Counted from the stretch's first letter, positions 9,599 to 62,267 are shown. The stretch: 64,000 nucleotides of DNA from a virus (IMGVR_UViG_3300024999_000042); one strand, 5' to 3'. The notes: generated by a model from the letters alone, not told the origin. Numbers and translations: made by a program.

Positions 9599-10819
9599 TT
9601 AAACAACCTCCGTTTCTGTATAAAATTTATTTCCAGTTTTTAAATAATAAAACTCCTGAAAATCTTCAGGAGTAAAATTAGCACTACCATAAATACTATG
9701 AAACTCTTCATGTAATTCTTTTGTTAAACAAACACCTAAACCATATTTTGATTGTAATTCCAGAAACGTTGCTGTAATTAATTCCAAAGTATTTTCATCA
9801 TAATCATTCAAATCATCGTAAAAGGTAATATAATTTAATAATTCTATAGTTTCTTCGACAATTTTATGGAATGGATATAAATGGTGTATATTATCAAATT
9901 TTTTACCAGTTATTACACATTCATAATTACAAACTGTCATAGATTCATTTTTCCATTCTATCATTTTACATGTTCTTATATATCGTTTTAATGATTGATT
10001 GCCTTTCCAATTAGGATGATTCTTACCAGTCCAAGAACGAAGAATATCATCATGTATACACCCACAACTTTTTGTATTACCACTAATTAAAGCAGAAGTT
10101 GGTAAGGTTAATTTATTACCACAAATACATTGACAATCCCATGATACACAATCACGAATCCTTTCTTTAGAAAACCCCAAAACTGTCAATCTTCCATATT
10201 GATTACCTGTAATATCATTATAATTATTGTGGAGATATTCACTTCTATAGCAACCACAAGAGATAGTATTTCCAGATGTTAATGCTTGAGAAGTAACATA
10301 TGTAGGCGGTGTACCACAATCACAAACACACTCCCATAGTGGTTTCGTATATGCCGTACCAATTCTTTTAATAACCGTTAATCTACCAAACCTTTGATTA
10401 GTTAAATCTTCAATTAAAGGTGAAGGTATTCCTCTTTTAGCTAATCCTGCATTAGTCATAGGGCATTCTCTACAAGTAATATCTGGTTTACTCAATAAAA
10501 CATTAGAACTAGTTTCATAATCATTTCCACAATCACATCTAACTTTCCAGAAAGAAGATTTTTGCTTCTTTTCTTTTTCTTTATCTTTTGATCGTTCTAA
10601 GACAATAAGAGTTCCATATTTATCACCAATTTTTATATCATGTTTATCATGACACGATGATAAAGTTTTTCCATTTAAAAAATTTCCAATATACTTATTT
10701 TTCTCTTTGCCACAAGTACAAACACAAACCCATAATGATTTCCCTATATACTCTTTTACCGTCCATGCACCAAAAACTTGACCAGTATAATCAATATTAG
10801 GAATACCTTTCTTAGACAT
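9599..10819 (-). CDS. HNH-type homing endonuclease-like protein with four zinc-ribbon repeats
   Basis: G-x2-F/YG-x-L/WTV...W-x-C-x-C-x-CG repeats; C-terminal IHHLY...GVCLT...H..FH..YG; likely start MSKKG. Confidence 0.8.
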   Translation of the reverse strand: MSKKGIPNIDYTGQVFGAWTVKEYIGKSLWVCVCTCGKEKNKYIGNFLNGKTLSSCHDKHDIKIGDKYGTLIVLERSKDKEKEKKQKSSFWKVRCDCGNDYETSSNVLLSKPDITCRECPMTNAGLAKRGIPSPLIEDLTNQRFGRLTVIKRIGTAYTKPLWECVCDCGTPPTYVTSQALTSGNTISCGCYRSEYLHNNYNDITGNQYGRLTVLGFSKERIRDCVSWDCQCICGNKLTLPTSALISGNTKSCGCIHDDILRSWTGKNHPNWKGNQSLKRYIRTCKMIEWKNESMTVCNYECVITGKKFDNIHHLYPFHKIVEETIELLNYITFYDDLNDYDENTLELITATFLELQSKYGLGVCLTKELHEEFHSIYGSANFTPEDFQEFYYLKTGNKFYTETEVV

Positions 10820-10870
10820 ATAATCAATCACACTCCTTAAATTACACTCAACCAACTAAAAATATAAAAA

Positions 10871-10935
10871 GACAAGCAGAAAATTCTCTATGAGTGTTCA
10901 ATAGAGAAGTCAGGTGTACATCCTGTCTACTTGTC
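10871..10935 (-). ncRNA. Putative structured leader RNA, copy A
   Basis: Three-helix fold; ACACTC loop complementary to two downstream GAGTGT repeats, one in the SD. Confidence 0.65.
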
Positions 10936-10966
10936 AAAATCATTAATATTAAATTACTACCACTTG

Positions 10967-12073
10967 TTACTGATATACCTTAAATCCACTTATCGACATC
11001 TGTGCATCAAATTTTAAATCTATTCCAATGCTATTTACACAATAAATGCCCTCCAATCCATCTTCGGTCGAATTGAAATTTATATTATTTTCAACATCTA
11101 AGAAATATATTGGCACAGTTGAAACACTAACTTGTTCATTAAAATTACCATGTTTAAATAATTGATATTGCCCATTAATCAAACATTGCTCATTGGTAAA
11201 ATAATTATCATCCTTGATAACTAATGCCTTCTTACCAATCTTAGCAATTGAAAATGGAGAATTTATATCATTATTTTCCACAATAGCAGATGCAATTGTT
11301 CCATCATTATTAGTTCTTCCTATTACTTTTATATAATTCTTTACGTTCGAGTAATCTGTAGAAACTTGACTGTTAATTCTAAAATCTGCTTTATCCAAAA
11401 AATTCCAGACGATATTATCATTTAAAGTATTAGGTGTTTTTCTAAAAACGAATCTTCCATTAATATCATAAAAACAAGACCATGAAAGATATAACTCTTT
11501 AACTTTCTGCACAACATCTAAAACAGTTTGATCTGGAGAAAATTCCAAATCATATGGAAGGTAATAAGGGGATGTATCTATAGACATACTTTGTTCTCCA
11601 CCCAACGTACCAACAACTAATTTCATTACATCTGAAATAGGAGTGTTAGAATTAAGAACCGTTATCATTTCTAATGGTATATTTTCAAGTAAATACATTT
11701 TGTCTACTAAGTCTAGAGATATTGTTTTTCCATCAGAAGAAGAATCTATAGATACATTTTTAATCATAAAAACACCCATACAATAAGGATGTTTAACACT
11801 TAAATAATCTTCAATTTCGATCCATAATTTCAATTTATTATTTATAGCCAATTTTGATTGCTGAGAGGGAAGCAGTGTTGTCGACAATAAGAATTTGATG
11901 TTCCCTGTACGTCTTATTAAACTATCACCAGAAACGTTTATATTCCCTGATAAACTTACACCCGTAAGAACATCAATTTTAGCATCTGAAGAATTAAGTA
12001 ATTCTACCTTTACATTTAAAATTCTAGTAGATTGCAAATGAGCATTATATTCTGCTTGTGTTATATTTGCCAT
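10967..12073 (-). CDS. Tail hub/baseplate protein (DUF5048-like)
   Basis: IRRTGNI, GVFMI, DKMYLL and FYDINGRFVF motifs of phage tail hub proteins; synteny. Confidence 0.7.
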   Translation of the reverse strand: MANITQAEYNAHLQSTRILNVKVELLNSSDAKIDVLTGVSLSGNINVSGDSLIRRTGNIKFLLSTTLLPSQQSKLAINNKLKLWIEIEDYLSVKHPYCMGVFMIKNVSIDSSSDGKTISLDLVDKMYLLENIPLEMITVLNSNTPISDVMKLVVGTLGGEQSMSIDTSPYYLPYDLEFSPDQTVLDVVQKVKELYLSWSCFYDINGRFVFRKTPNTLNDNIVWNFLDKADFRINSQVSTDYSNVKNYIKVIGRTNNDGTIASAIVENNDINSPFSIAKIGKKALVIKDDNYFTNEQCLINGQYQLFKHGNFNEQVSVSTVPIYFLDVENNINFNSTEDGLEGIYCVNSIGIDLKFDAQMSISGFKVYQ

Positions 12074-12114
12074 TTAATTGTTTATCACCCAATTTCTTTT
12101 AAAAAATTATCAAA

Positions 12115-13017
12115 TTAAATTGTTGTTAGTCCTTCTAATAAACCTGCATTTATAAGTATATCGGTATCCTCGTAATTTCCAATTTCAGCAAGAGCAAATG
12201 AAACCTTTGAAATACCGTTTATTCCATTTTGATGTTCTTCAGTAGGATTGCCGAGTAATGATACTAAAAATATATTACCGTTTCCATCTCTATAAATTTT
12301 AGGTTTTTTATTCTTCAAGAAATTAAAAAGTTTGTTCCTTGTTAATTTCTCTTGTTTAATATCAATTTTTCCTCCAGAATTATAAGTTGTATCCGAAACA
12401 GAAGTGCTTTTTATATCAAATTTGACATAATCAGAATTTCCAAAAACTATAGTTGGGTATTGAGCGTTTAAAGGCATTAGTTCTGTGCTCTGAGTAATAT
12501 GTTCGTGACTTCCATACTCAACATCAAAAATCAATGAATAGTTATTATCCTTATCTGAGAGAAATACCCCATCGAACAAAACTGTCACAGTAGGACTAAT
12601 CACACGATTACCTTGAACTTCGTTAACCATAGGTAAAAGTGAGTATTCATAATCAAAATCACAAGCAACATATTTATCTATTGCTTCATAAAATGTACTT
12701 GTTCCATCATATGTTATTTGAGAAACATCCGACCAATATAATTCATCTGCTTTTCTTTTTTGAAATAAAATATGATCTATGACAAGACCATTGCTCGTAA
12801 TTGACCCACCCTCAAGAGAATCATCACTAAAAGGAGCATCTAACACAGTTTTATAACCCCATACAGTAGGTTTTGCTATAGAATCAGTAATTTCAGTATC
12901 TTCATCAATATATATTTCATCTACAACAGAATTGCTTAATTCCGTTTTATAAAATGATGGTAAAGCGACAGTAGTTTGAAAGCAATCGCCTTGAAAAAAA
13001 TTAAGTCCAATTAACAT
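12115..13017 (-). CDS. Distal tail/structural protein
   Basis: Synteny; FLKNKKPKIYRDGNG motif seen in SPbeta-like tail proteins. Confidence 0.55.
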   Translation of the reverse strand: MLIGLNFFQGDCFQTTVALPSFYKTELSNSVVDEIYIDEDTEITDSIAKPTVWGYKTVLDAPFSDDSLEGGSITSNGLVIDHILFQKRKADELYWSDVSQITYDGTSTFYEAIDKYVACDFDYEYSLLPMVNEVQGNRVISPTVTVLFDGVFLSDKDNNYSLIFDVEYGSHEHITQSTELMPLNAQYPTIVFGNSDYVKFDIKSTSVSDTTYNSGGKIDIKQEKLTRNKLFNFLKNKKPKIYRDGNGNIFLVSLLGNPTEEHQNGINGISKVSFALAEIGNYEDTDILINAGLLEGLTTI

Positions 13018-13038
13018 TTATTATTTTCACCTCAATTC

Positions 13039-14085
13039 CTAAATAACCAATTGTTGTGTAATTTCTAAAGCATTACTCAAAGATTGTAAATAAATCATAA
13101 ATTCAATGTTAGTTCCAACCACTAAAACATTACTAATAAAATGAGGAATTATTGTAGTTAATCCATTCAAATATTTAAAACCATGAATCTGATTATTATA
13201 CTTAATTAATTCAATTTTCCCATATTCAGAAACTAATTTTAAAAATACTGTGTCATCAGGAATATTTTTACACCATAATTTCAATATAAAATCTGAGCCT
13301 AATTGAAATCCATCTTGAAAACTAATTTGCCCACTAGTTAAATTAATCCAATCATTATTAATAAATGTAACTGTTCCAGAATCAATTTGACCGATTTCTT
13401 GGATAAGTTGTACTGATAATTTTATTGCACCTTGAGATGGAAGATTTTCAACATTAAGTGTTGTGATTAATCTAGGTGTGATAAAAAAAGGAGTAAACGC
13501 AATTAAACCAGAAGTTGAAAGTTGCGAATGTATTGAAATTCCTTTTACTTCTAAATAATATAATTCTTCATTTTCTAATCCAGTTATTTCTTGTGAAATT
13601 GGTGGAATTGTACCATTAGAAAATTGCTCAGAATATGTTTGAAGTAAATTTTGATTAGAATTATATAATAGGAATTTATATGACTGTAATAACTCATTTT
13701 CTAATTGACTATACGTTGCTGTAAAATTTATTGTTGAATTATAAACTTTATTATTGATATCTATTGTTGGAATAAGAATAGTAGGGGATGATAATACATA
13801 AAAATAAATCCAATCAGAGAAGTTTGACCAATTGTTAGCAACGTCACCAACACGAATTTTTGCTTTATATTCTACACCGTTAATAAGAGAGTTAATAGGC
13901 AATGGATGATTAAGAGCAAAAGATTGGATAGTTTGATCATACGAAACTGAATTATCAATATTTTTTTGTATGACTAAGTTATTTTGAGTTGCTTGATTGC
14001 TACCCGAATAAGAAAATATAAAATTTTGTGCTTGAGTTGATGGAAAGGGCAAAATAATACTAAGTAATGGAGTTGTGAGAGACAA
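13039..14085 (-). CDS. Tail protein with FN3/Ig-like folds
   Basis: LINGVEYKAKIRV...WSNFSDW and GLENEELYYLEV motifs; synteny. Confidence 0.55.
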   Translation of the reverse strand: MSLTTPLLSIILPFPSTQAQNFIFSYSGSNQATQNNLVIQKNIDNSVSYDQTIQSFALNHPLPINSLINGVEYKAKIRVGDVANNWSNFSDWIYFYVLSSPTILIPTIDINNKVYNSTINFTATYSQLENELLQSYKFLLYNSNQNLLQTYSEQFSNGTIPPISQEITGLENEELYYLEVKGISIHSQLSTSGLIAFTPFFITPRLITTLNVENLPSQGAIKLSVQLIQEIGQIDSGTVTFINNDWINLTSGQISFQDGFQLGSDFILKLWCKNIPDDTVFLKLVSEYGKIELIKYNNQIHGFKYLNGLTTIIPHFISNVLVVGTNIEFMIYLQSLSNALEITQQLVI

Positions 14086-14137
14086 TTATTTTCACCACCT
14101 TTATTTTTAATATTTAAATTATTATATTTACTTGTAT

Positions 14138-14401: not shown

Positions 14402-14445
14402 TATTTTTTATCATTCCTTTTTGTGAAGATTTATTTTGTTTTGTT

Positions 14446-15441
14446 TTATTGATTAAAATGCTTTTTATAAGTTTGATTAATCTGGTCTCCTGTTACATCA
14501 ATATATCCCATAGTAGTAGAAACTGAACTGTGTCCCATAATTTCTTTTATAACACTTAAATTAGCACCGCTAGAAGTCATATTACTACATAATGAATGAC
14601 GAAAAACATGTGGATGTAATGGTTTAGTTATTCCTGAACGCAAAGCAATAATTCTAATTTCTCTTTGTATTCCTTTCATTGATAATTTTCTATATGGTTT
14701 CCTAACTGTTATAAATAAAGCAGAATCATTATCTGTTCTAGATGCTAAGTATTTATTCAAATAAAACTTTGCTTTAAATCCAAAATGAACGATTCTTTCT
14801 TTATTTCCTTTGCCTATTATATGTATTGTCATATTCGCCCAATTAATATCTGTAAATCTATTAATATTGTATATTTCTTGAAGTCTACACCCTGTAGCAT
14901 ACATGATATTTACCATAGTCTTTTCTCTAAGAGTTACACAAGATTCTCTTATTAGTTCTAATTCCTCAATATTTAGTGATTTAGGTAAACGTTTTTCTTT
15001 TTTAGGTGTTTTAATTATACAAGCATTGTCTTTTATAATAATATCTTCATTTCTTAACCAACTGAAGAAGGTTTTTAATATGGAGATTTTTTTAGATAGA
15101 GAACTAATTTTAAGTTTATCCCACTTGCTTAGATATACTCTAATATCATTTGTTGTAATGTCATCTGCTTTTTTCTTTACATGTTTTGCAAAAATAGATA
15201 ATTCTAACTTATAACTTTTTAGAGTAGAATCGCTTAGTCTCTCTAATTTTTTACCTGCTAAAAATAATTCTGCCTTTTCTAATAAGTCTGTATAGTCGTC
15301 CGTGTAAGTTGTCATTGAAATGTTATATTTTGATATTACAGAGAATAAACTATGTATTTCTGCTTCTGTGTTTAATTGCGGAAAATTGTTTATTATTTCT
15401 TGTTGGAGTAAGTCATTATAAATTGACATAGTATGTACCAA
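14446..15441 (-). CDS. Tyrosine recombinase (XerD-like)
   Basis: YATGCR, GKGNKER, HPHVFRH, MGH and GY: full catalytic set plus N-terminal SAM-like domain. Confidence 0.92.
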   Translation of the reverse strand: MVHTMSIYNDLLQQEIINNFPQLNTEAEIHSLFSVISKYNISMTTYTDDYTDLLEKAELFLAGKKLERLSDSTLKSYKLELSIFAKHVKKKADDITTNDIRVYLSKWDKLKISSLSKKISILKTFFSWLRNEDIIIKDNACIIKTPKKEKRLPKSLNIEELELIRESCVTLREKTMVNIMYATGCRLQEIYNINRFTDINWANMTIHIIGKGNKERIVHFGFKAKFYLNKYLASRTDNDSALFITVRKPYRKLSMKGIQREIRIIALRSGITKPLHPHVFRHSLCSNMTSSGANLSVIKEIMGHSSVSTTMGYIDVTGDQINQTYKKHFNQ

Positions 15442-15526
15442 TTCCTTTCTTTTTATTCATTTGTTCTCTAAAGAAATAATATCATACTATGCCAATTTAT
15501 ACAAGGAAAATAATTATTTATTAGTT

Positions 15527-16300
15527 TTAGTTAGTTAGTGATGCTGTTGAGATTAAATGTTTTAACTCTTCGGGACAATTATCCAAATAATAAAAGTAAT
15601 ATCCATGTGTTTTATTTAAAGTTCCAGCTAAACATCTACTAATATTTCCCCTATGTGCTTTTGTATCTCTGCTACAATAAGTCTGATTATACCAAGTGCC
15701 TATGTATTTATTATTTTCATTAAACACTACAAATTCTCTTGTGTTTCTAACTCTTTTTAATCTATTATCTAGATTTTCTTTTGTAAAATCATCTTTATAA
15801 ATAAGAATAAAATCACCAACTGATGGTCTCCTATTTGTTAATGATTGATTAGCATCCGATGTAGTTATATTATTCTCTATACAAAATAAAAACCTATTAT
15901 CAGATTCTTCAATAAAGTTACCAAGTTTATCAAATACTAAGAGACTTCTATCATCATGCTGTGTGCGTAAATACTCAATATGCTCTTCTTTTGATGGTTT
16001 ATGAATTTTTTGACCACCAACAGTCATATTATACCCATTATTGCCATATGTTCCAAAGTGGTCAATCCAATATGTTTCTTTATAATCAAGTTCCTCTGGA
16101 GAATCGGCATAGTCAAGTTCTTCCCATATGAAATTTTCCGCACCGTATTTTTTCATTGCTCTTTGAAAAATATATTTTTGTTGACTAATAGAATTAATAT
16201 GCTCTCTTTTTCTTTTTTCTAATGTACAAGTAGTTTGTCCTATATATCGCTTATTATTTGTTAAATTTTTTGCAGAATATATTATACCGTAATAATCCAA
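15527..16300 (-). CDS. GIY-YIG homing endonuclease with NUMOD1-like C-terminus
   Basis: GIIY...RYIGQT...RKREH, ETYWI, GYNMTVGG, GNISRCL. Confidence 0.88.
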   Translation of the reverse strand: MDYYGIIYSAKNLTNNKRYIGQTTCTLEKRKREHINSISQQKYIFQRAMKKYGAENFIWEELDYADSPEELDYKETYWIDHFGTYGNNGYNMTVGGQKIHKPSKEEHIEYLRTQHDDRSLLVFDKLGNFIEESDNRFLFCIENNITTSDANQSLTNRRPSVGDFILIYKDDFTKENLDNRLKRVRNTREFVVFNENNKYIGTWYNQTYCSRDTKAHRGNISRCLAGTLNKTHGYYFYYLDNCPEELKHLISTASLTN

Positions 16301-16469
16301 TAAATCTCCTCGCTTCTCTTTTACATTAGAAAAAGAGAGTACAAAAATTATACTCTCTTTGATAAAATATTATTTTTACTTAATGAACAGTTGATTGTCT
16401 ACTGCAAACTAGTTACATCAGTAAAATATGTAGTAAAGGGCAAAGAAAAAGCTTTGCCCTTTATTTAAT

Positions 16470-16610
16470 TTAAGGTGTTACGATTGGATTTCCGCTGTCA
16501 TCAAGCCCAAGTGCCAACAGATCAGCGTGTACTTCTGTTTGGTATTTTACTGGAACCTGCGCAAAGGTTCTACGTCCAGCCATAATCAAGGCGACGTACA
16601 TATCTACCAT
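16470..16610 (-). CDS. CD1375-like small protein
   Basis: MVDMYVALIMAGRRTFAQVP...LLALGLD; GGAGGTG SD. Confidence 0.7.
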   Translation of the reverse strand: MVDMYVALIMAGRRTFAQVPVKYQTEVHADLLALGLDDSGNPIVTP

Positions 16611-16658
16611 AACATTACCACCTCCTCTCAATAGCAGTAGGATAATACTAAACATTGC

Positions 16659-17054
16659 CTATACCGTCCCTTTCTCTAACATACCTTCGTAGATTGTTGC
16701 GAGGACTTCCATGATAGTGAGGTTATCAGCTTTAAGTTTGGAGTTATCGTCTTTAAGCTGGGCTAGTTGCTCTTCAATAGTTAGGGATTCGCTTACGTTT
16801 TCAGGTATTTTAGGGATAGTTATTTTTCCGTCTGTAGGACTGTACTCCACTCCGTCAACCGTGATCGGGTCAGTATTAGCTGAATCCGCCTCCCATGCTT
16901 CAGAAGTTGGGTTAAACTTCACCCATCGGTAGATTAATTGGGTTTCATTCTCTTCAACTTTTAGTGCTATTACAGGACTTACACTTTCTTTAATAATAGT
17001 AGTGCCCACAACCCTGATACTAAAAACTATTCCATTTTCAATCATTAGCGTCAT
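16659..17054 (-). CDS. Tail-fibre-associated protein
   Basis: C-terminal coiled coil ending in LATIYE, typical of genes preceding CD1375/XkdX-like genes. Confidence 0.55.
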   Translation of the reverse strand: MTLMIENGIVFSIRVVGTTIIKESVSPVIALKVEENETQLIYRWVKFNPTSEAWEADSANTDPITVDGVEYSPTDGKITIPKIPENVSESLTIEEQLAQLKDDNSKLKADNLTIMEVLATIYEGMLEKGTV

Positions 17055-17740
17055 GTTTCTGTCCCTCCAGCATATTCAAAATCTAATGGATAACTGGTTG
17101 AGCTACATTTTACTTCGATTAAACAACTTTGGCTAAAGAACAGTGGCATTGTAGTAGCCATTATATTCCCCTTATCAGATATTATAGATTGGGGGAAATT
17201 TGCGTTATGCGGAATGCCGTGTATAGTAATGTCGTAAACACCTTTATCAAGTAAGCACATATACCCATTATATCTACCGCCTGATTCAGATTTCCCTTGT
17301 ATTTCCTCATATAACGCGATTCCATCAAGGGTTATCTTAAAATATCCCGTCACTGTTGCATCCGACCATCTTCCCAAATATCTACTTAAAAAACCTTTAC
17401 CTGTAATACTTAAAATAGGTTGATAGGTATTTACTAGCGTAGGAGTAAAACGGTTCCTATTACCAATGCCCTGCCCTGCTAAATTTCTGTATGTTGAAAA
17501 ATAGTGGTACTTGCTCCAATCCGTACCCCCAGTGTTAACCCTTATATCCTTTAATTTTGCATGAACACTACCAGTTGCGCTTGAAGGATCAGCATTACTA
17601 CCTAAATTTGCAACAATATTATCATATATTTGTTTTAGTCTAGCAAATAATGTAGTAGTTCCGCCAGCATCAACATTTGTCCCTACTTTAGTGTTTATAG
17701 TTTCTACTTGCGCTTTCGTTGGAAGTAATATCTCTGGCAT
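17051..17740 (-). CDS. Short tail-fibre/receptor-binding-like protein
   Basis: GTTTLFARLKQI and TGSVHAKLKDI fibre-shaft repeats, beta-rich C-terminus. Confidence 0.55.
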   Translation of the reverse strand: MPEILLPTKAQVETINTKVGTNVDAGGTTTLFARLKQIYDNIVANLGSNADPSSATGSVHAKLKDIRVNTGGTDWSKYHYFSTYRNLAGQGIGNRNRFTPTLVNTYQPILSITGKGFLSRYLGRWSDATVTGYFKITLDGIALYEEIQGKSESGGRYNGYMCLLDKGVYDITIHGIPHNANFPQSIISDKGNIMATTMPLFFSQSCLIEVKCSSTSYPLDFEYAGGTET

Positions 17741-18007
17741 TTATACCACCGCCTCATAAATAAATGATAGTTCTCCGCTTACTGCTTTCCATCCGTACCT
17801 ATAAACTACTCCACCATCTGTAAACCGATGTGGCATAGTTTCCGCCTGATGTAGAGCAAGGGTATCAGAAACACCCTTCACTGTTTCAGTAGTTCGACCT
17901 TCTCCTGCTAAATTGTCTAGTCCACTTTGTAATGCTTTAGTATCTAATTCATTTATTAATCCTGAATTCAATTCATTATCTGAAATTCTTCCTTGACCTC
18001 TTGCCAT
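17741..18007 (-). CDS. Tail-fibre fragment-like small protein
   Basis: LAGEGRTTETVK and LHQAETMPH motifs resembling Firmicute phage fibre junctions. Confidence 0.5.
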   Translation of the reverse strand: MARGQGRISDNELNSGLINELDTKALQSGLDNLAGEGRTTETVKGVSDTLALHQAETMPHRFTDGGVVYRYGWKAVSGELSFIYEAVV

Positions 18008-18109
18008 AATTTACCTCCTTAAATTATTAACCACTGATTATTTATCATAAAAAAGTTAGAAGAAATTAATCCTCTAACTTTTTCACAAAACCATATAAAA
18101 CTGTAACTT

Positions 18110-28786: not shown

Positions 28787-31549
28787 TTAATTTAATTTTG
28801 ATAATACGTCAATTAATTTATTTTTTACACCTTCACAATTGTTCTTCAAGTCATATGGATATAAGTCTATAAAAATAATATCATCTCTAGATTTATAATA
28901 ATTATTTTTCAACACTATTTTATCTTGGTAATTTTTAAACATAGTTAACTCACCTTGATAATTTTTTAAATATAAACCATAATACTCAATAATTATTGGT
29001 TTTACTAATTCAATATCTTTATAATTATCAATGACAAAATCGGGACATATTTTATTTATACCATTATATTTATATGTATATTTTCCTGAATGATTAGAGC
29101 CAATAGCACAAATACCATCAATATTTAAGTCTCTTTTGATTGATTCGTACACCATTATTTCTTGTTTACTATCACATTTTACCCCATCATACGCTAGACA
29201 TAACCCAAAATCTTCTGGAGTCCACTCCTTGCTATATTCAGGATATGATAAACACGCCCATTCATAAAATGACGTAAATTTTCTTAATCGTGTGCCACTA
29301 TTTTGTAAATAGGCACAAAATTTAGGATATAATTCATTCATAAAAGTAAAATTTAAATATGTTGGTAAATCATCCTTTATGTCAAAGACCAAATCATTCA
29401 TTCTATAAATCACAAATTCCCTTAAAAATCTAGAAAGATCATGTACAGAAGTTTTATTATTTCTACTCAACTCCCATTCGAAAAGTAAATTATTATCTTT
29501 TATTATAGAGTATGCCTCGACAAGTAAATCATATGTATCAATTTTAAATGTTGCAAAAGTATATAGTTCTTTTAACTTTTGCTTAGAAAAATATTTCAAT
29601 ACCCAATCTTGAACATTTTTCCATGAATCTAAACAATTTAATATATTATCTTTACATTGATTCTCACAATAATGCCTAATTGCTCTAATTCTATTGTCTT
29701 TACTTTCCCAAAATCCATCAGTTTTATTTGTAAAATCTAAATCTATAATAGGGGTTTTAGTATCGGGATGTACGATATTTTTTATTTGAAACAGCCATAT
29801 AAGTAAATCCATATGAGCCATATTGAATTTTCTATACTTATTTTGCCATAAATTCATCATATCCCTATTAAATAGTCCAGTTATTCCGTAACTAGTTAGG
29901 ATTTGTTTTACACTTATATTCTCACTTTTCACCCAATCATCAAAAATTTTCATTGCAGTATCATTATCATATTTATCAATGTCATCATCTGAAATATTAA
30001 ATTCAGGAAAACATGCTTGCAATGTTTCTAAAACAGTACCAAATCTTTGTGTAATTTGAATTTTATATTGATTTAAATTAGGGCAATTTACATTATTGCA
30101 TATTTCATCTTTTGTTTTACAGTCCATCTTTTCAAAAACAATATACCTTACTATCTGAATAAAATTTTCTTGTATATGACAATGCTTTGGCATTTGTGTA
30201 ATTTCACCATCATAAAAGTATTTCCACCACCTTTCAAGAGGTATGTCCGTTATCTCTTTATATATTATTCCTTTCTCTTTATACAAGTCTCTGTTCTCCC
30301 GTTTTTGCATACATTCTAAACATATGTTTTTTAAGTAAAACAAACTATAAACATTACCTTTAGGGAAAAATTCGTTTGTAAAATCTTTTGTTTCTCCACA
30401 TTCTAAACATTTATTCAATACAATGATATTTGATTCTTTTATATCCTCATTAAAAATCTTGGAAAATAATTTTTCTGAATCTCTATTAAATACTATAATA
30501 CATAAACCGTCTAAATTATAATCGCATAATAATTGGTTAAAATTATGGTCTATCAAATCGCTTCCATTAATAATATTTTTATCTAGTTTTAATTTATATT
30601 TCAACCACTCTAAAGCATCATTTATATTATTTTCATTTTTCCAGAAAGCAGAAGGAAAGTTAACATGTTTCTTAAATTCCCAAAGTTTAATATTGTACTC
30701 AGAATATATTTCTATGATTAATTGTTTTGATTCTTTAATTTTAATAATTGAATCAAGTTTATATTCTTCTAAAATATTATTGTCAAATTGGTTACATATA
30801 TCTTGGTATCCCCAATTAAGAATAGAATCAAACAAATGCTTTAATACAATATATTTGTATTGTTTATGTTTAGAAAATCCATTTGGAAATGACTTCAATT
30901 TTCCATTTAATACTAAATTAAAAATATGTATTACTTCAAACTCAGATAAACTATTAATTACAATGCTACTCGTTATATTGTATTTATCTGCCCAGTATGT
31001 AATAGTTTTTGTATGTTTACTGTATAATAAAGAGGCCCCTTTTCTCCCTAATATTCTGTAATTTGTAATAAATTCATCTATATTATCAATCCAATCAGGA
31101 GTGTCTTTTGGTTTATGACTCCATGAATTATTTTTTCTATTATGATCTGTCGAACATTTTACAGAGCAAAATCTTAATCCATCTTCTAAAAACTTATAAA
31201 GTTTTTGCTCAATATCTCCTCCGCAATTATCACATTGTCGTATAACTTTCAATGGTATACTACCAAGTTTAAGTTTTTCACTCAATAATATTACAACATC
31301 TTTTAAAGTTTTATTTGGTAACATTGGTACAATTTCATTAACATGTTGTACTCTTCTATTTAATAAAGAATCAATTATAATTCTATACTCTTCTATTTTC
31401 CAAACGTCATTCTCTTCTAATTTATTATTCTGAATCACCATACATACCTTACATGTTGTTCTGTAGTATCCTCCACCTCTTGAATGATACTCACCAACTG
31501 GTTTCTCTTTACCACAAACCTTACAAACTTTTGTCTCAACATTACTCAT
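28787..31549 (-). CDS. Large endonuclease-like protein: Zn fingers, DUF4046-like repeats, C-terminal PD-(D/E)xK-like domain
   Basis: CKVC...CKVC and CDNC...FCSVKC fingers; FPNGF/WEF/FW repeats; DSKQE...PDF...IIIEYYG; likely start MSNVE. Confidence 0.7.
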   Translation of the reverse strand: MSNVETKVCKVCGKEKPVGEYHSRGGGYYRTTCKVCMVIQNNKLEENDVWKIEEYRIIIDSLLNRRVQHVNEIVPMLPNKTLKDVVILLSEKLKLGSIPLKVIRQCDNCGGDIEQKLYKFLEDGLRFCSVKCSTDHNRKNNSWSHKPKDTPDWIDNIDEFITNYRILGRKGASLLYSKHTKTITYWADKYNITSSIVINSLSEFEVIHIFNLVLNGKLKSFPNGFSKHKQYKYIVLKHLFDSILNWGYQDICNQFDNNILEEYKLDSIIKIKESKQLIIEIYSEYNIKLWEFKKHVNFPSAFWKNENNINDALEWLKYKLKLDKNIINGSDLIDHNFNQLLCDYNLDGLCIIVFNRDSEKLFSKIFNEDIKESNIIVLNKCLECGETKDFTNEFFPKGNVYSLFYLKNICLECMQKRENRDLYKEKGIIYKEITDIPLERWWKYFYDGEITQMPKHCHIQENFIQIVRYIVFEKMDCKTKDEICNNVNCPNLNQYKIQITQRFGTVLETLQACFPEFNISDDDIDKYDNDTAMKIFDDWVKSENISVKQILTSYGITGLFNRDMMNLWQNKYRKFNMAHMDLLIWLFQIKNIVHPDTKTPIIDLDFTNKTDGFWESKDNRIRAIRHYCENQCKDNILNCLDSWKNVQDWVLKYFSKQKLKELYTFATFKIDTYDLLVEAYSIIKDNNLLFEWELSRNNKTSVHDLSRFLREFVIYRMNDLVFDIKDDLPTYLNFTFMNELYPKFCAYLQNSGTRLRKFTSFYEWACLSYPEYSKEWTPEDFGLCLAYDGVKCDSKQEIMVYESIKRDLNIDGICAIGSNHSGKYTYKYNGINKICPDFVIDNYKDIELVKPIIIEYYGLYLKNYQGELTMFKNYQDKIVLKNNYYKSRDDIIFIDLYPYDLKNNCEGVKNKLIDVLSKLN

Positions 31550-31622
31550 ACTCAACACTCCTTAAAATTTTATATTTCTAACCATACCAACCACACACTC
31601 CAAACCAAAACATTATAAAAAG

Positions 31623-31680
31623 GCAACAAAAAGAAGGGAAGGAGTGTATTCCCTTCTACAGTCAGCTAAACTGATGTTGC
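31623..31680 (-). ncRNA. Putative structured leader RNA, copy B
   Basis: GCAACA/UGUUGC closing helix; 9-bp hairpin with loop UACACUCC complementary to two GGAGTGT repeats, one being the SD. Confidence 0.65.
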
Positions 31681-31825: not shown

Positions 31826-32311
31826 CTATTGTCTTGAAAATCCAGACATATGAGATTTAGGCAATTGATTAATCAATTCAGTATAAGCCTGACTAATCGA
31901 TTCAAACATATCATAATTATATGCTAATGCCATATCAATCACAAAACAATCTGTTATTTTTCCTAAATACCACTCTTCACATAATTCATCTTTAGAAATC
32001 GTAGAAACTTGATCTAAAAGCACAGCACTGTCTTTTTCTAAAAAATGATAATCTTTTTTAAATAATGAAGCGTGATAAGGATATTTTAACTTAGTAGTTT
32101 CTCTCTCATAATAATTTTTTATATCAGAAATAGGACAAATGATAATTCTTCCTGATTTTGGATTATTTCTACTAATGATAATATATGGTCTCGCTTTTTG
32201 CGACCTAATTTTAGGATCGCTGTCTTCAAAATCAAACCAATGAATACAACCCTTTTCAGTATGTTCTATTTGAATTTGAGTTGGTTCTTTAGGATATTTA
32301 GGACATGCCAT
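31826..32311 (-). CDS. PemK/MazF family endoribonuclease toxin
   Basis: KGCIHWFDF...QKARPYIIIS...IICPIS...SAVLLDQVSTISK. Confidence 0.85.
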   Translation of the reverse strand: MACPKYPKEPTQIQIEHTEKGCIHWFDFEDSDPKIRSQKARPYIIISRNNPKSGRIIICPISDIKNYYERETTKLKYPYHASLFKKDYHFLEKDSAVLLDQVSTISKDELCEEWYLGKITDCFVIDMALAYNYDMFESISQAYTELINQLPKSHMSGFSRQ

Positions 32312-36324: not shown

Positions 36325-37098
36325 TCAACGCTTTTTAAGATTTAATAAAGAAATAATAAACTCTTTACCATTTTCAGTAATTAGTATTTGATTATATTTA
36401 TAACCTTGTTGATTTATATTTTCTTTTCCGTTAATAAAATAACCATCACTTATATATTTTTCGTTTATGTAAAATGAATTATTTTCATGTTTGAATATAT
36501 TCTTAAATTCTAAAACCTTATATAGTCCACTTCTAGAAAAATCTATTATATATCCATCTGCTATCAATTCTTCCACTATTGACACACAATTTAACATTGT
36601 ATTTAACTTCTTTTTCTTAGGAGTAGTATTTACGACAACAGTAGATTTAATATTTATTTTTGCTTTAGGTTTTAATTCTTTAGGTTTCTTATTTGGTAAA
36701 ACCCCATTAAACGCTATTAATCTTTTTAAGTATATTGAATCAACTTTAGCACTTAAAATAACTCTTGCTCCACTCAACACTTTTTCAACCGTATTTTCAA
36801 TGTTATAACCGTTTGTTATGGAATTATATTTATTAATATATGTACCTTCTACATATATTAATTGCATTGTTGTTTTGTATTGTGTTTGTTGATTTTTTAC
36901 CTCTTCTACTATATCAAATGTAAAATTATTTTTACCGTAAGTATTCCAATCTCTTTGGAGTTTATAACTGTGGTGTTTATTGCTACTTAAATCTTCTATA
37001 TGCACTTCCCATCGTTTTTCTATATCGTTACTCTCTCCCATATACACTTTCCCATTTGCTTTACATTCAATTTTATAAATTCCTCTTGTCTTTTCCAT
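36325..37098 (-). CDS. GIY-YIG endonuclease with KilAC-like C-terminus
   Basis: GIYKIEC..NGKVYMGES..IEKRW..H, LQRDW, GYN; C-terminal LITENGKEFI. Confidence 0.85.
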   Translation of the reverse strand: MEKTRGIYKIECKANGKVYMGESNDIEKRWEVHIEDLSSNKHHSYKLQRDWNTYGKNNFTFDIVEEVKNQQTQYKTTMQLIYVEGTYINKYNSITNGYNIENTVEKVLSGARVILSAKVDSIYLKRLIAFNGVLPNKKPKELKPKAKINIKSTVVVNTTPKKKKLNTMLNCVSIVEELIADGYIIDFSRSGLYKVLEFKNIFKHENNSFYINEKYISDGYFINGKENINQQGYKYNQILITENGKEFIISLLNLKKR

Positions 37099-37166
37099 TT
37101 TTACACGTCCTTTTCTTTTTTTTTATTATTTTTGTTCTATATTTTTGTCCTTTTAGTAATATAAAA

Positions 37167-37232
37167 AACTAAATGGCAAAGGAAAGGACACCTTCTTTTT
37201 AATGGATGATCAGTCCATTAAGCCATTTAGTT
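37167..37232 (-). ncRNA. Putative structured leader RNA, copy C
   Basis: 11-bp closing helix, UGAUCA-loop hairpin, UGUCCUUU loop complementary to two AAAGGAC repeats including the SD. Confidence 0.7.
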
Positions 37233-37372
37233 AAAATTATCAAATCTGATGTAAAATATTAGAATCGTCAAGGTTGGGTGATTCTCTCAAAGTGTTGCTA
37301 TATAAGCATATTTCCAAATATCAATAATCATATCAAAAGTTAGTTTTCTGGGATTGAGATAAGATGCACTTA

Positions 37373-38389: not shown

Positions 38390-38454
38390 TGGTTTATAGT
38401 CACTTCCTTTATTTATATATTTATTTATATATTTATTACTAATTAAATATTTTA

Positions 38455-40334: not shown

Positions 40335-40335
40335 A

Positions 40336-40938
40336 TTAAACCACCACAACTTTAGATAATTCTTTAAATTTACTACAAACTAAACCTACAATTTCATCTT
40401 GAATTCTTCCTTCAACTGCTTTATTTAAAATACTACAATTATTTTTATATCGTTTACATCCGATGCAATTAGATTTAAATTCTTCTAATTGATTGACTGT
40501 AGGAAATATTCCTACATAGTCAACAGGATAAATGGTGATATCTATATGTGAATTTTTAGAATCATAATAGATGCCATTCACTCGTTCGCATGTTGTATTG
40601 TCGTCTAACCATATTAATTGTGTCTCAGTAATTGAATCCAAAAGCAATTTGAAATAATTGTTTGCATCTTTATCAATTCTGTCAAAATAAAAAACGCAGT
40701 CAACGTAAAAATGCTGTGTCTTATTAGGTGTTAAATTCCATCCTTGAATATTTACTTCATCTTTTATATATTTTATAAAATCTTTCTTATACTTCTTTGC
40801 TTCTGCAGTTTCATATAAAGTTGACATTGCTTTTGGCTTACCTCCAACATATGTAATAAAACTCCTGATTTTTATGTAGTGATTTACGCTGACAGGGATA
40901 GGGGATACTAATTTTAAAATATTATTAATATTAAACAC
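40336..40938 (-). CDS. rusA: RusA family Holliday junction resolvase
   Basis: PVSVNHY...DANNYFKLLLDSI...WLDD. Confidence 0.8.
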   Translation of the reverse strand: MFNINNILKLVSPIPVSVNHYIKIRSFITYVGGKPKAMSTLYETAEAKKYKKDFIKYIKDEVNIQGWNLTPNKTQHFYVDCVFYFDRIDKDANNYFKLLLDSITETQLIWLDDNTTCERVNGIYYDSKNSHIDITIYPVDYVGIFPTVNQLEEFKSNCIGCKRYKNNCSILNKAVEGRIQDEIVGLVCSKFKELSKVVVV

Positions 40939-44348: not shown

Positions 44349-45619
44349 TTATATATTCTCTTTCTTAATTTTTCTCAATTTACCAAAATCATAACCTTTT
44401 TCATATTGACTACAAATTACTTTATTGTTATCGATATCAAACTTTATCCAAGAATGACCTGAATTTAAATATTCTTTGGCATGAATAATCATTTCTAGAA
44501 TTATATTATCAGAAGGTATTTTATCTTTAATGCAAATAATTCTAATCATTTTCCAACCAAGACTTTTTAGGAATAAATATCTTTTTATTTCCTTACTATC
44601 AAATTGAACTTGTGATATTTGATTTAATTTCACATTTAAATCATGTCCTCCACCGTCATATTCAATATAAATATCATCTTCTACTTTTATATCTAACGTT
44701 ATATGACTTACAGGATAATTTAAATCACCATTTATAAGTTTATTTATGTATAGTTGCTGTGAACTACATGCTATTTGACCAGTTAAATACATTGTTTTAT
44801 TTCGTTTTATAAATGCCTTAGTTTGTATCTCTTTATTTTGCATATGATGTTCAACACCATAGTTTTCTAAACTTGTTTGTATTTTCTTATCTTTAACTTC
44901 TTGTATTTGAGATATATTATTCACACCATATCTTTCAATGATTGTTTTTAATAATTTATCTTTAACCAGTTCATTGTTCATTGGACTTGCTGAACCATAC
45001 CTCGCTATATTTGTATCAGAAGTTTTTTGTTTTATTTCTGGATTCTGCGATGCATATTTAAACCCATATCTTTTTAAGTTTGTTCTTTTAACCTTATCTT
45101 TAGTTTCCTGTATATGAAACGGACTTGTTACTCCATATCTCTCTAAGAGAACTTCTTCTTTTTTAATTTTACTTCAGGACTTGAATTATGAGATTCAAAA
45201 CCATATTTTATTAAATTTGTTGCTTTACAACTATCTTTAACCTCTTGGGACTGTGACGCACTTTCGTACCCATATTTAACTAAGGAAGTTGCTTTCCGTT
45301 TAATCTGTTTATTATCATTAAATTCTTTATTAGCATATAAAATATTCCATACTTCTATATTTTTAATGCTTTTACATTCTTTACAGCAGTCTTTATCCAC
45401 ATTTTCTTTGCCTTTTAAGGTATCCCTATACTCTTTACTTGTAATATTTATTTTACAATAATCACAAAGCACATCTACTATGACATGACTTCCAAGTGTT
45501 AAATCTTTGACATTGACCATTAATTTAGATTTCATTTTTGTGAATGCATACCCCTTTAAAATGTACCAATCTTTATTCCAATTTGACCATTTTGTCTCTA
45601 CTTCTTTATCTATTAACAT
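44349..45619 (-). pseudogene. Repeat-containing (T-x-L-x-R/K-YG) Vsr-like endonuclease, split by a -1 frameshift at 45158-45164
   Basis: Repeats continue across the two track ORFs in the -1 frame (KKEEVLLERYGVTSPF...ARYGSASPMNNE); C-terminal IEYDGGGH...LGWKMIRI; start MLIDKE. Confidence 0.75.
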
Positions 45620-45650
45620 TTTTAAATTCTCCTTCCGATATTGAGAAAAG

Positions 45651-45731
45651 ACAATGGGGAAGACACCCTGTATCGGCAAGGTGTCTTTATTACTCTTATA
45701 AATCTGGCCTGATTTGTAAGAAACCATATGT
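45651..45731 (-). ncRNA. Putative structured leader RNA, copy D
   Basis: Two hairpins inside a closing helix; loops AGGCCA and CCGAUA, the latter complementary to TATCGG abutting the AAGGAG SD. Confidence 0.6.
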
Positions 45732-45740
45732 AATTATTTA

Positions 45741-46013
45741 TTACTTTTTGTAAGAAAAGTTATTGTATTGAACTTTACTGTTTTTGTCATCACTATTTTT
45801 AATTTCTTTATCTGGTACAATACTTTTTTCTTCAATATATATTTTGTCTTTAACTTCTAAATCTTTCCACTCGAATCCAACAGGTGTGAAAAACACCTTT
45901 ATAAGTTCCATTGTATAAATATTCTTTAAAAATTCTAAATCATAATTGTCATTAACCTTTATACGTTTATCTTTAGGAACTGCAGGATGAGCATATTTTA
46001 ATATATAGTTCAT
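45741..46013 (-). CDS. Hypothetical protein downstream of the tail tube gene
   Basis: ORF track, synteny. Confidence 0.5.
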   Translation of the reverse strand: MNYILKYAHPAVPKDKRIKVNDNYDLEFLKNIYTMELIKVFFTPVGFEWKDLEVKDKIYIEEKSIVPDKEIKNSDDKNSKVQYNNFSYKK

Positions 46014-55054: not shown

Positions 55055-55080
55055 CTCCTTTCAACTATTTATTATTTAAA

Positions 55081-56721: not shown

Positions 56722-56757
56722 ATTGGAGATGCCTCCTTTCTTTAAGTGGTTATGTTA

Positions 56758-59838: not shown

Positions 59839-59839
59839 A

Positions 59840-60898: not shown

Positions 60899-60927
60899 CT
60901 CTTTTTAATTAAATAAAGAAGAAGTAT

Positions 60928-62154
60928 TTAACCAACTTCTTCTAAATCTTTATATTTACCATTAATATAATCTTCCTTAAATTCATTAAACTGTTCTACA
61001 TTATTCTCACCATACCCGTAAACTTTGTGGAAAAGTGCATGAATATCACCAGTCAAACACACTCCAACGCCATGAATCTTATGTAATCTGGCACATTCAT
61101 TTTTAATCAATATTAACTCAGAATCTTCATATTCATTAATAAATCTTCTTTTTTCAATATTTAAGTTATCAAATATCTCATTAAATATTTTATCAAATCC
61201 ATATAAATGATGAATTACATCAAATCGTTTATTAGTTACAACACATTTGTAATTTGATGCTATCATCGATTCTTTCTTCCATTCTGTAATAGAATCTCTT
61301 AAAATTGAATTTATTTCAGAGAAACCACCCTTCCAATTATAATTATTTTCTCCACTTAATCTATCATTACTACATAATGTACAACCTAATGAGTTAGACA
61401 TTCCACTATAAGTTGCAGTTTGAATTATCCCTTTATGTATCGGACACTCATATTTTAATTCAGAATGATTATTTATATAATCCTCTTCGTTTGACAATAA
61501 AATTGTATTCTTTATTTTAAATAAATTTTCGACTTCATTAAAATCTTTCCTTCTTGACTCACTTAATTTGTCCCAAGCACAATATTTACAATCTTGATTC
61601 TTATATTTAAAATTAGCATATAATATTGATTGAACTCCTTTGTCTTGATGCTTGTTGCAAATAAAATCCATATATGATTTTGTATTTTCATATGTTTTGC
61701 TTAATAATACTAAATTTCTTTCTTTAAACTCTTCGTCAATTTCATCAATATTATATTTAGAATTTGTTATTGAAATTTTATTTCCAACTCCGGCAATTTG
61801 TGGACTATATTTTACTCCATTTTTAATAAAACATATTTCCTCTTGTTTTTTATGTTTACATTTTCCACAAGCATCTTTTGCTATTGGTTGTGTTCTTCTA
61901 GTTTTATTATACTCACTATATGGTTTTGAAATTATAGTTTCTATACCATCTTCGTGACAATAATCGCAAGACACGTTTACTTTTGCGTTACTATTCTCCT
62001 GTAAGTCGCATATCTTTACTGTAATTTTTGATCCTTGGATAATACGTAATCTACCTCTATTATCTAATTCTTTTGGAATTTTGTATCCCAAATTCTCATA
62101 ATATTTTACTGATTTACCATTTAACCCTACTTCTACTTCTGTACTAATTAACAT
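60928..62154 (-). CDS. HNH-type homing endonuclease-like protein
   Basis: N-terminal CDYC domain, C-x2-H repeats, NYNWKGG...IHHLYGF...GVCLT..H..FH..YG. Confidence 0.8.
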   Translation of the reverse strand: MLISTEVEVGLNGKSVKYYENLGYKIPKELDNRGRLRIIQGSKITVKICDLQENSNAKVNVSCDYCHEDGIETIISKPYSEYNKTRRTQPIAKDACGKCKHKKQEEICFIKNGVKYSPQIAGVGNKISITNSKYNIDEIDEEFKERNLVLLSKTYENTKSYMDFICNKHQDKGVQSILYANFKYKNQDCKYCAWDKLSESRRKDFNEVENLFKIKNTILLSNEEDYINNHSELKYECPIHKGIIQTATYSGMSNSLGCTLCSNDRLSGENNYNWKGGFSEINSILRDSITEWKKESMIASNYKCVVTNKRFDVIHHLYGFDKIFNEIFDNLNIEKRRFINEYEDSELILIKNECARLHKIHGVGVCLTGDIHALFHKVYGYGENNVEQFNEFKEDYINGKYKDLEEVG

Positions 62155-62214
62155 CTTTCTAACCCTTCTTTCTGCAAATTATATTTCCCTCTGCACTAAC
62201 CACTAAAAAGTAAA

Positions 62215-62267
62215 TAGAAGATAGGGTGCAGAGTCAGGGTGATCAAGCCCTAAAAACCTATCTTCCA
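62215..62267 (-). ncRNA. Putative structured leader RNA, copy E
   Basis: GAAGAUAGG/CCUAUCUUC helix, UGAUCA-loop hairpin, unpaired CUCUGCAC complementary to downstream GTGCAGAG and TGCAGA. Confidence 0.6.

What the first reader, a model, noticed from the sequence alone, without database searches (positions are those of the whole stretch)
10819..62267. Family of five structured leader RNAs, each with a loop that base-pairs with the translation-initiation region of its own downstream endonuclease gene
Seen: five minus-strand intergenic elements (10871-10935, 31623-31680, 37167-37232, 45651-45731, 62215-62267) each precede a predicted nuclease (HNH, PD-(D/E)xK-like, GIY-YIG, Vsr-like, HNH). They have little sequence identity but share one design: a closing helix followed by a U-rich tract, a hairpin with a palindromic loop, and an unpaired 6-8 nt segment (ACACUC, ACACUCC, UGUCCUUU, CCGAUA, CUCUGCAC). 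The exact complement of that segment occurs once or twice between the element and the start codon, with the proximal copy at or next to the SD. Loop and targets change together across four different codes, which is covariation. Known: P1/P7 C4 and P4 CI RNAs are encoded in the leader they regulate and use loops to pair with downstream targets; T4 homing endonuclease genes are restrained by RBS-sequestering hairpins. Inference: a portable, re-addressable RNA silencer/attenuator that travels with toxic free-standing nucleases of unrelated folds so they can sit inside a highly expressed late operon. A role as a nuclease-bound RNA is a more speculative alternative. I do not recognise it as a named Rfam family.
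Basis: partly seen in the sequence, partly recalled or inferred. Interest (0 to 1): 0.93.

Follow-up and report, generated by a model that had tools for sequence, protein, structure and literature searches.

The report
Three-armed leader RNA of phage nuclease genes
Selfish DNA-cutting-enzyme genes in this uncultured phage and its relatives each carry a small three-armed RNA fold whose one loop is the exact antisense of the gene's own ribosome landing site, so it most likely brakes production of the enzyme; it is a divergent relative of int-alpA, an RNA motif catalogued in Rfam whose function I found no test of.

Summary
All five elements exist as described and sit in front of homing-endonuclease-type genes. 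E1, E2 and E3 are compact three-way junctions: a closing helix P1 followed by a U tract, P2 with a palindromic loop, and P3 with the "address" loop. E5 lacks the P3 stem. E4 is a degenerate copy in front of a split nuclease gene.

I found ten more copies (eight distinct) in related uncultured phages, all in front of mobile nucleases of at least seven families, including TnpB. All three stems covary: 18 of 20 pairs show compensatory changes. The P3 loop and its targets change together. Copies found without using that criterion still show it (combined p about 3e-5).

In strain G001 the E1 site is empty, and a near-identical leader precedes a different nuclease. So the leader is a portable module, and its code is not nuclease-specific.

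No window copy matches Rfam. One relative (G005b) scores above the cut-off of int-alpA (RF02996), whose consensus shows the same layout.

Best reading: a cis-acting attenuator and translation brake, which may also act in trans. This is inferred, not shown. Earlier notes of this scan record similar leaders in at least 25 other genomes.

The parts
10871..10935 (-). E1 three-way junction. P1 GACAAGUAGA/UCUGCUUGUC. P2 CAGG-AUGUACA-CCUG. P3 UUCUCUAU-UGAACACUC-AUAGAGAA.
   Evidence: R2: 71 bits
10820..10870 (-). E1 tail: U tract UUUUUAUAUUUUU, distal target 10844-10850, proximal target 10830-10835 inside the SD. ATG at 10817-10819.
9599..10819 (-). HNH homing endonuclease, 406 aa. Together with the E1 leader it forms an insert (9696-10967) that is absent from strain G001.
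31623..31680 (-). E2 three-way junction. P1 GCAAC(A)/(U)GUUGC. P2 CAGUU-UAGCU-GACUG. P3 GAAGGGAA-UACACUCC-UUCCCUUC.
   Evidence: R2: 49.6 bits
31550..31622 (-). E2 tail: CUUUUUAUAAUGUUUU, distal target 31595-31601, proximal target 31555-31563 covering the SD. ATG at 31547-31549.
28787..31549 (-). 920-aa protein with an N-terminal HNH/endonuclease VII-like region and DUF4046.
37167..37232 (-). E3 three-way junction. P1 AACUAAAUGGC/GCCAUUUAGUU. P2 UUAAUGGA-CUGAUCA-UCCAUUAA. P3 GAAGG-UGUCCUUU-CCUUU.
   Evidence: R2: E 0.023
37099..37166 (-). E3 tail: UUUUUUAUAUU, targets 37146-37153 and 37107-37113 (SD). ATG at 37096-37098.
36325..37098 (-). GIY-YIG homing endonuclease, 257 aa.
45654..45727 (-). 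E4, a degenerate junction. Weak P1 AUGG/CCAU, imperfect P2. P3 AAGACACCUUG-CCGAUA-CAGGGUGUCUU (45660-45687). Homologous to G005a.
45620..45653 (-). E4 tail: target UAUCGG (45635-45640) touching SD AAGGAG. ATG at 45617-45619.
44349..45619 (-). Split DUF7487/phrog_12131 homing endonuclease. N-terminal part 45143-45619, C-terminal part 44349-44981.
62215..62267 (-). E5, a two-stem variant. P1 GGAAGAUAGG/CCUAUCUUC. P2 UAGGG-CUUGAUCA-CCCUG. Unpaired CUCUGCAC (62226-62233) in place of P3.
62155..62214 (-). E5 tail: UAUUUACUUUUUAG, targets 62189-62196 and 62171-62176. ATG at 62152-62154.
60928..62154 (-). 408-aa endonuclease-like protein (phrog_5104, phrog_681, N-terminus like phrog_12131).

Best explanation
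Each element is the 5' regulatory leader RNA of a mobile-nuclease cassette. It is a three-way junction of the int-alpA type.

Step 1, inferred: the closing helix P1 plus the conserved tail UUUUUAUAUU acts as a leaky intrinsic terminator or attenuator. Few transcripts reach the nuclease gene, and a free RNA of about 70 nt is released.

Step 2, the complementarity is shown and its effect is inferred: the 6-9 nt of the P3 loop pair with the translation-initiation region of the same cassette. The pairing lies on the Shine-Dalgarno sequence in most copies and immediately 5' of it in three. This holds a bulky junction on the ribosome landing site and keeps translation of the nuclease low.

The second, distal copy of the target and the self-complementary P2 loop are conserved features whose role is open. 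They could be a decoy or switch site, and a loop-loop dimerisation site.

The module moves with the nuclease gene and can be swapped between nucleases. Its 'address' drifts through compensatory changes in loop and target.
For: Real structure:
- Fifteen copies (13 distinct) occur in the window, G001, G002, G004, G005 and L085.
- On six diverse copies, 95.6% of cells are paired and 18 of 20 pairs have changes on both sides. None of 500 shuffles reached this, and slid controls gave 39-51% paired.

Loop-target pairing under selection:
- E4 CCGAUA:UAUCGG against G005a CCGUUA:UAACGG.
- E1 ACACUCA:UGAGUGU against L085 and G004a UCACUCC:GGAGUGA.
- E3 GUCCUUU:AAAGGAC against G002d GCCUUA:UAAGGC.
- In E2 of G002 the loop changed A to G while the targets stayed, giving a G.U pair.
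- Copies found by protein homology, covariance model or structure alone have a combined p of 3e-5.

Portable, and the code is not nuclease-specific:
- G001 has an empty site where the window has E1 plus the HNH gene. It carries an 82.5% identical leader before a DUF7487 nuclease.
- The E2 leader is 88% conserved in G002 before a different gene.

Context: all 15 downstream genes are mobile nucleases. They include HNH, GIY-YIG, DUF7487, HNH_repeat, endonuclease I-like, DUF4379-HNH and TnpB.

Tail: it has the same form as the simple terminators of the same genomes, which the model also picks up.

Precedent: T-even homing endonucleases are held down by RBS-sequestering structures and terminators (PMC2988022).
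Against: - Termination, read-through and repression are all untested.
- A terminator between tail genes (E1) should be polar on essential downstream genes, so it must be leaky or it is not a terminator.
- In G002t, G005a and E4 the target lies beside the SD, not on it. This would also fit an activating pseudoknot.
- Minimum-free-energy folds of whole leaders do not need the loop-target pairing.
- Helix energies are the same on both strands, -301 against -298 kcal/mol. The helices alone do not prove the sense RNA.
- G002c has only a 5-nt match (p = 0.18).
- The alignment used for pair counts was fitted to the structure by the model.
Confidence: 0.6

Rival explanations
1. Trans-acting small RNA. 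The junction ends at its own terminator and accumulates as a free RNA of about 70 nt. Through the P3 loop it binds the two target sites of nuclease mRNAs, as C4 RNA of P1/P7 does. The different codes keep cassettes in one genome independent, and the palindromic P2 loop lets two RNAs pair so that both targets are covered.
For: - The U tract is conserved in nearly all copies.
- Rfam files int-alpA as an sRNA gene.
- Most copies have two targets per leader.
- Five distinct 6-8 nt palindromes occur in P2 loops, against a background of about 5% of loops.
- G005a has a perfect TTGACA-17-TATAAT directly upstream of the junction.
Against: - E1 and E2 in the same genome share almost the same code, so they would cross-react.
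- Promoter-like hexamers are at chance level in this AT-rich DNA.
- No RNA data.
Confidence: 0.15
2. Activating pseudoknot. The P3 loop pairs next to the SD to open or organise the initiation region and raises translation, as in repZ of IncI-alpha and repA of IncB plasmids.
For: - In G002t, G005a and E4 the target abuts the SD but does not cover it.
- Short open frames overlap the distal targets of E1, E2, L085 and G004a (read). This recalls the repY leader peptide (my own knowledge).
Against: - In most copies the pairing covers GGAG itself.
- A selfish nuclease is expected to be restrained (PMC2988022).
Confidence: 0.1
3. DNA-level signal. The inverted and direct repeats and the palindromic P2 are binding sites for a protein (a nuclease autorepressor as for I-TevI, or a recombination or insertion factor), or they are hairpins in single-stranded DNA as at IS200/IS605 ends.
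For: - The helices are equally stable on both strands.
- P2 is a near-perfect DNA palindrome.
- One copy precedes a TnpB gene with its RAGATH-18 guide-RNA motif.
- I-TevI autorepression is known (PMC2988022).
Against: - The same code goes with different nuclease families: E1 and G001, L085 and G004a, E2 and G002. A nuclease-specific operator does not fit.
- Stems covary while keeping pairing rather than sequence.
- The G002 loop change keeps only a G.U pair.
- The U tract and the position of the target at the SD are strand-specific features.
Confidence: 0.08
4. Ordinary terminators of upstream genes with chance complementarity to purine-rich SD regions.
For: - Single 6-nt loop-target matches are at chance level genome-wide: 37 real against 23-39 decoys.
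- Anti-SD-like CUCC and CCUU are common in stems.
Against: - At the empty site in G001 the upstream tail gene has no such terminator.
- Double targets, covariation and the exclusive link to nucleases argue against chance.
Confidence: 0.03

Closest known systems
int-alpA RNA motif
   Same: - A three-way junction followed by a U run.
- The P3 loop of the consensus holds CCUU and the 3' tail holds AAGG (consensus line).
- Junction nucleotides UAG and (C/U)GAAA recur in G005b, G005c, G002c and G002d.
- G005b scores 37.2 bits against a cut-off of 35.8.
   Different: - None of the five window copies, nor E1', E2', G004a, G002t, G002c, G005a or G005c, reaches E = 10 with the Rfam model. G002d also has no hit at the gathering score.
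- Here the host is an AT-rich uncultured phage lineage from fermentation-type samples, and the neighbours are homing endonucleases rather than int or alpA.
- The P2 loop is palindromic.
- The loop code varies between copies (CACUC, GUCCU, CUGCA, CCGNUA, UCCUAA, CUCCG).
- The target is duplicated.
RBS-sequestering hairpins and terminators of T-even homing-endonuclease genes (I-TevI/II/III, segB, mobE; Edgell, Gibb and Belfort 2010, PMC2988022)
   Same: Cis RNA structure upstream of a selfish nuclease gene that can hide the SD. Terminators limit read-through.
   Different: There, a local hairpin includes the SD and a late promoter lies inside it. Here, a distant loop of a junction pairs with the SD as a pseudoknot or kissing contact, there are two targets, and no internal promoter is evident.
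C4 antisense RNA of phages P1/P7 (Rfam RF01695) and CI RNA of P4 (my own knowledge)
   Same: The RNA is encoded in the leader it controls. Loops pair with downstream targets, one of them at an RBS. Loop and target co-vary between relatives.
   Different: No sequence or model match. C4 uses two loops for two targets and is cut out of a precursor. Here one loop faces two copies of one target, and the 3' end is a terminator.
Leader of IS200 (terminator hairpin plus RBS-occluding stem-loop) and the repZ/repA pseudoknot of IncI-alpha/IncB plasmids (my own knowledge)
   Same: IS200: a mobile element shields itself from outside transcription and limits its own translation. repZ: a hairpin loop pairs next to the SD.
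   Different: IS200 uses two separate hairpins. The repZ pseudoknot activates translation and is opposed by a separate antisense RNA.

Membership tests
int-alpA (RF02996) | Score at or above Rfam's gathering cut-off of 35.8 bits | tested here: not met
   Window: no hit at gathering or at E <= 5. E3 alone: none at E <= 10. Near-copies of E1 and E2 (L113, L115): none at E <= 10. Only the relative G005b passes, at 37.2 bits.
int-alpA (RF02996) | Three-way junction P1-P2-P3 closed by P1 and followed by a U run | tested here: met
   E1, E2 and E3. E4 weakly. E5 lacks the P3 stem. U tails are listed.
int-alpA (RF02996) | Conserved junction nucleotides UAG (P1/P2) and CGAAAA (P2/P3) | tested here: inconclusive
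   Present in G005b, G005c, G002c and G002d. E3 has AAAG only. E1 and E2 lack them.
int-alpA (RF02996) | P3 loop with CCU(U) and a downstream A(A)GG | tested here: met
   E3 has UGUCCUUU with AAAGGAC. E1 and E2 use CUCC with GGAG. E4 and E5 use other codes.
T-even type RBS-sequestering hairpin | The SD lies inside a local stable hairpin, with a late promoter within the hairpin | tested here: not met
   The SD is outside the junction. The pairing is long-range, 34-71 nt from hairpin to target. The promoter scan is at chance level.
c4 antisense RNA (RF01695) | Match to the family model; two loops a and b with two targets a' and b' | tested here: not met
   No Rfam hit. Here one loop faces two copies of one target.
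Intrinsic (Rho-independent) terminator | G+C-containing stem directly followed by a U run; termination shown | tested here: inconclusive
   P1 of 6-11 bp plus UUUUUAU, like the simple terminators of the same genome. The stem is branched. No transcript ends could be examined.
Group I intron peripheral domain | Match to RF00028 around the element; insertion inside a gene | tested here: not met
   No RF00028 hit in the window at E <= 5. The E1 cassette is intergenic, starting right after the stop codon of the tail gene.

The most novel reading that the evidence does not exclude
The junction is a self-addressed, re-codable RNA brake that works as a dimer. Terminated copies pair through the palindromic P2 loop with the copy in the read-through mRNA, so that two P3 loops clamp both target sites. 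The drifting codes give each nuclease cassette in a genome its own private silencer. This would make int-alpA-type RNAs a general control module of mobile nucleases, TnpB included, across phages.
Probability: 0.12. Interest if true: 0.85.

Novelty: new variant of a known kind. Interest (0 to 1): 0.68.

Why it matters
Three reasons.

- It gives a testable function to an orphan Rfam motif, int-alpA: restraining the translation of selfish nucleases through a loop that is antisense to the gene's own ribosome-binding site.
- It suggests how free-standing homing endonucleases, and a TnpB element, can land between or inside essential phage genes without killing the phage. They bring their own insulator and brake, and that module is exchanged between unrelated nucleases.
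- The natural set of mutually different loop-target codes on one scaffold is a ready-made design for orthogonal translational repressors.

Tried and rejected
**Searches that gave no near relatives or no new copies**
- No near relatives in INPHARED phages or PLSDB plasmids.
- None in GTDB genomes.
- The metagenome scan gave only one new distant contig, L129, which I did not analyse.
- Models R1 and R2 found no copy beside 80 diverse HNH homologues from IMG/VR. With this sensitivity the family looks lineage-restricted.
- Two exact-pattern scans of IMG/VR gave only chance hits.

- No whole genome is held for the window.
- A MAFFT alignment of all copies was not structure-consistent. Pair counts therefore rest on a model-fitted alignment of six copies.

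**Tests that were uninformative**
- A generic genome-wide loop-target 6-mer scan is at chance level.
- The double-target version is only weakly above decoys: 8 against 1-6.
- Sense and antisense folding energies do not differ.
- The sigma-70-type promoter scan is at chance level.

**Readings rejected**
- Terminator of the upstream gene: the empty site in G001 has none.
- Nuclease-specific operator: the same code goes with different nucleases.
- Group I intron domain: no RF00028 hit.
- Membership of c4.
Full report
**Setting.** The window has 29% G+C and is almost wholly coded on the minus strand. It carries tail, tape-measure and other phage genes. Nothing similar is in INPHARED or PLSDB. A 99.8% identical JGI metagenome contig exists (L081). 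IMG/VR holds diverged relatives:
- G001, G002 and G003, 68-97% nucleotide identity.
- G004, whose tail protein is 52% identical.
- G005, a 139-kb genome rated complete by CheckV, whose tail protein is 36% identical.

**The observation.** All five elements, their unpaired segments and the complementary sites are at the stated places.
- E1, E2 and E3 fold into compact three-way junctions of -20 to -23 kcal/mol. P1 closes the junction and is followed by UUUUUAUAUU-like sequence. P2 carries a loop with a palindrome (UGUACA, AGCU, UGAUCA). P3 carries the loop that matches the targets.
- E5 has P1 and P2, with the matching segment unpaired.
- E4 is a strong P3-like hairpin inside a weak junction.
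- All five downstream genes hit homing-endonuclease families.
- The E4 gene is split in two.

Three other nuclease-like genes of the window (15527-16300, 38652-40349, 2-478) have no such junction. The link is therefore strong but not universal.

**Chance.**
- A single 6-nt loop-target match is not significant genome-wide: 37 real against 23-39 decoys.
- One inverted copy plus two direct copies of a 6-mer occurs in 6 of 24 leaders of 60 nt or more, including all five, against 0.73 expected. The E4 hit is a stem-arm word, not its loop-target pair.
- The summed length of the two best matches gives p = 0.0002 (E3), 0.0005 (E5), 0.0012 (E2), 0.01 (E1) and 0.08 (E4).

**Relatives decide the matter.** I found ten further copies.

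| Copy | How found |
|---|---|
| L085 | protein homology |
| E1' in G001 | model R1 |
| E2' in G002 | model R1 |
| G002t | model R1 |
| G002c | structure-only scan |
| G005c | structure-only scan |
| G002d | model R2 |
| G004a, G005a, G005b | loop-target scan |

- On six diverse copies, 95.6% of cells pair and 18 of 20 pairs carry changes on both sides. None of 500 shuffles reached this, and slid controls gave 39-51%. The alignment was model-fitted, but the helices are plain by eye.
- P2 loops hold five distinct palindromes: UGUACA, UUGCAA (four copies with unrelated stems), UGAUCA (three copies), UUAGCUAA and UAAUUA. The background is about 5% of loops. By my own hand calculation from that background, five or more of eight distinct loop types has a probability of about 2e-5.

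**Loop and target covary.**
- CCGAUA:UAUCGG (E4) against CCGUUA:UAACGG (G005a).
- ACACUCA:UGAGUGU (E1) against UCACUCC:GGAGUGA, twice (L085, G004a).
- GUCCUUU:AAAGGAC (E3) against GCCUUA:UAAGGC (G002d).
- CUGCAAA:UUUGCAG (G002t) against CUCUGCAC:GUGCAGAG (E5).
- In E2' the loop changed A to G while both targets stayed, leaving a G.U pair.
- The five copies found without any use of the loop-target criterion give a combined p of 3e-5. G002c is the weak one, with 5 nt.

**Portability.** In G001 the tail gene (window 10968-11966) is followed after 4 nt by the homologue of window 8489-9695. The 1272 nt holding E1 and the HNH gene are therefore an insert.
- G001 carries an 82.5% identical leader, with both targets kept, about 1.2 kb away. 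It lies inside that neighbouring gene, in front of a DUF7487/phrog_12131 nuclease.
- The E2 leader is 88% identical in G002, where the flanks are diverged or replaced and the downstream gene is an HNH_repeat protein.
- L085 and G004a share a code but precede different nucleases.

The code therefore belongs to the leader, not to the enzyme. This argues against a nuclease-specific DNA operator and for a self-contained RNA pairing. All 15 copies precede mobile nucleases. These include a TnpB gene with its RAGATH-18 RNA that splits the tape-measure gene of G002.

**What is known.**
- The window has no Rfam hit at gathering or at E <= 5.
G005b matches int-alpA (RF02996) at 37.2 bits, above the cut-off of 35.8.
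- The int-alpA consensus is a three-way junction with a U run, CCUU in the P3 loop and AAGG in the tail. That is the same layout.
- G005c, G002c and G002d share its junction nucleotides. E1, E2 and E3 do not reach E = 10.

I read the window copies as a divergent, AT-rich branch of an int-alpA-like superfamily. I found no paper that tests int-alpA. RBS-sequestering hairpins and terminators of T-even homing endonucleases are the functional precedent (PMC2988022).

**Mechanism.**
- Shown: the structure, its covariation, the loop-target complementarity at or beside the SD, its portability, and its link to nucleases.
- Inferred: that P1 plus the U tract terminates or attenuates, that loop-SD pairing represses translation, and the roles of the distal target and the P2 palindrome.
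- Rivals: a trans-acting sRNA, an activating pseudoknot, and a DNA-level signal. Each is listed with the test that would separate it.

**Earlier notes.** Notes of this scan describe the same kind of leader in at least 25 other genomes. Those are leads, not evidence.

Noticed in passing
window 44349-45619 (-): The nuclease behind E4 is split into two ORFs, 45143-45619 and 44349-44981. They match the first and second halves of phrog_12131, and intact versions (414-432 aa) exist in G001 and G005. Its leader has also decayed (weak P1 and P2).
   Followed up: partly
L095 (G001) 15984-19064, compared with window 8226-9695: In G001 the E1-like leader plus a DUF7487 nuclease sits inside the homologue of window gene 7772-9598. 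This cuts it into a 405-aa ORF and a downstream remainder. It is a gene-splitting insertion like mobE in the nrdA gene of phage Aeh1.
   Followed up: partly
L093 (G002) 9109-11059: A 1.95-kb insert splits the tape-measure gene into ORFs 1103-9157 and 11038-12423. It holds a three-way-junction leader, a TnpB gene (9755-10888) and a RAGATH-18 RNA (10948-11017). About 550 nt of unexplained sequence precede the junction. An IStron-like arrangement was not tested.
   Followed up: partly
L094 (G003) 12891-13164 (-) and 9227-9290 (-): A group I intron (RF00028, 51.3 bits) and a second RAGATH-18 RNA lie in the tape-measure region of G003.
   Followed up: no
window 14446-16300 and 36325-38470 (-): Twice, a tyrosine-recombinase ('integrase') gene lies next to a 257-aa GIY-YIG gene: 14446-15441 with 15527-16300, and 37373-38470 with 36325-37098. 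G003 lacks the first recombinase gene. These may be mobile pairs.
   Followed up: no
window 16301-16469 (-): The leader of the second GIY-YIG gene has no junction. It has two simple hairpins with U tracts. The 3' arm of the second (UACUCUCUUU) can also pair with AAAGAGA just 5' of the SD.
   Followed up: no
L108 (G005) about 7188-7240 (-), and window about 45760-45790 (-): A perfect TTGACA-17-TATAAT lies 14 nt upstream of the G005a junction. ATGACA-17-TACAAT lies about 34 nt upstream of E4. The cassettes of this subfamily may carry their own promoter.
   Followed up: no
window 10826-10852, window 31560-31603, and L111 13440-13475: Short open frames start in or at the distal target and stop at or just before the SD. 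Examples are UUG AGU GUA AUU UAA in E1, a 14-codon frame ending UUU UAA GGAG in E2, and AUG GAG UGA in G004a. This could be a leader peptide or chance.
   Followed up: no
window 31826-32311 (-): A MazF-like growth-inhibitor gene (phrog_1936) lies directly upstream of the E2 cassette.
   Followed up: no
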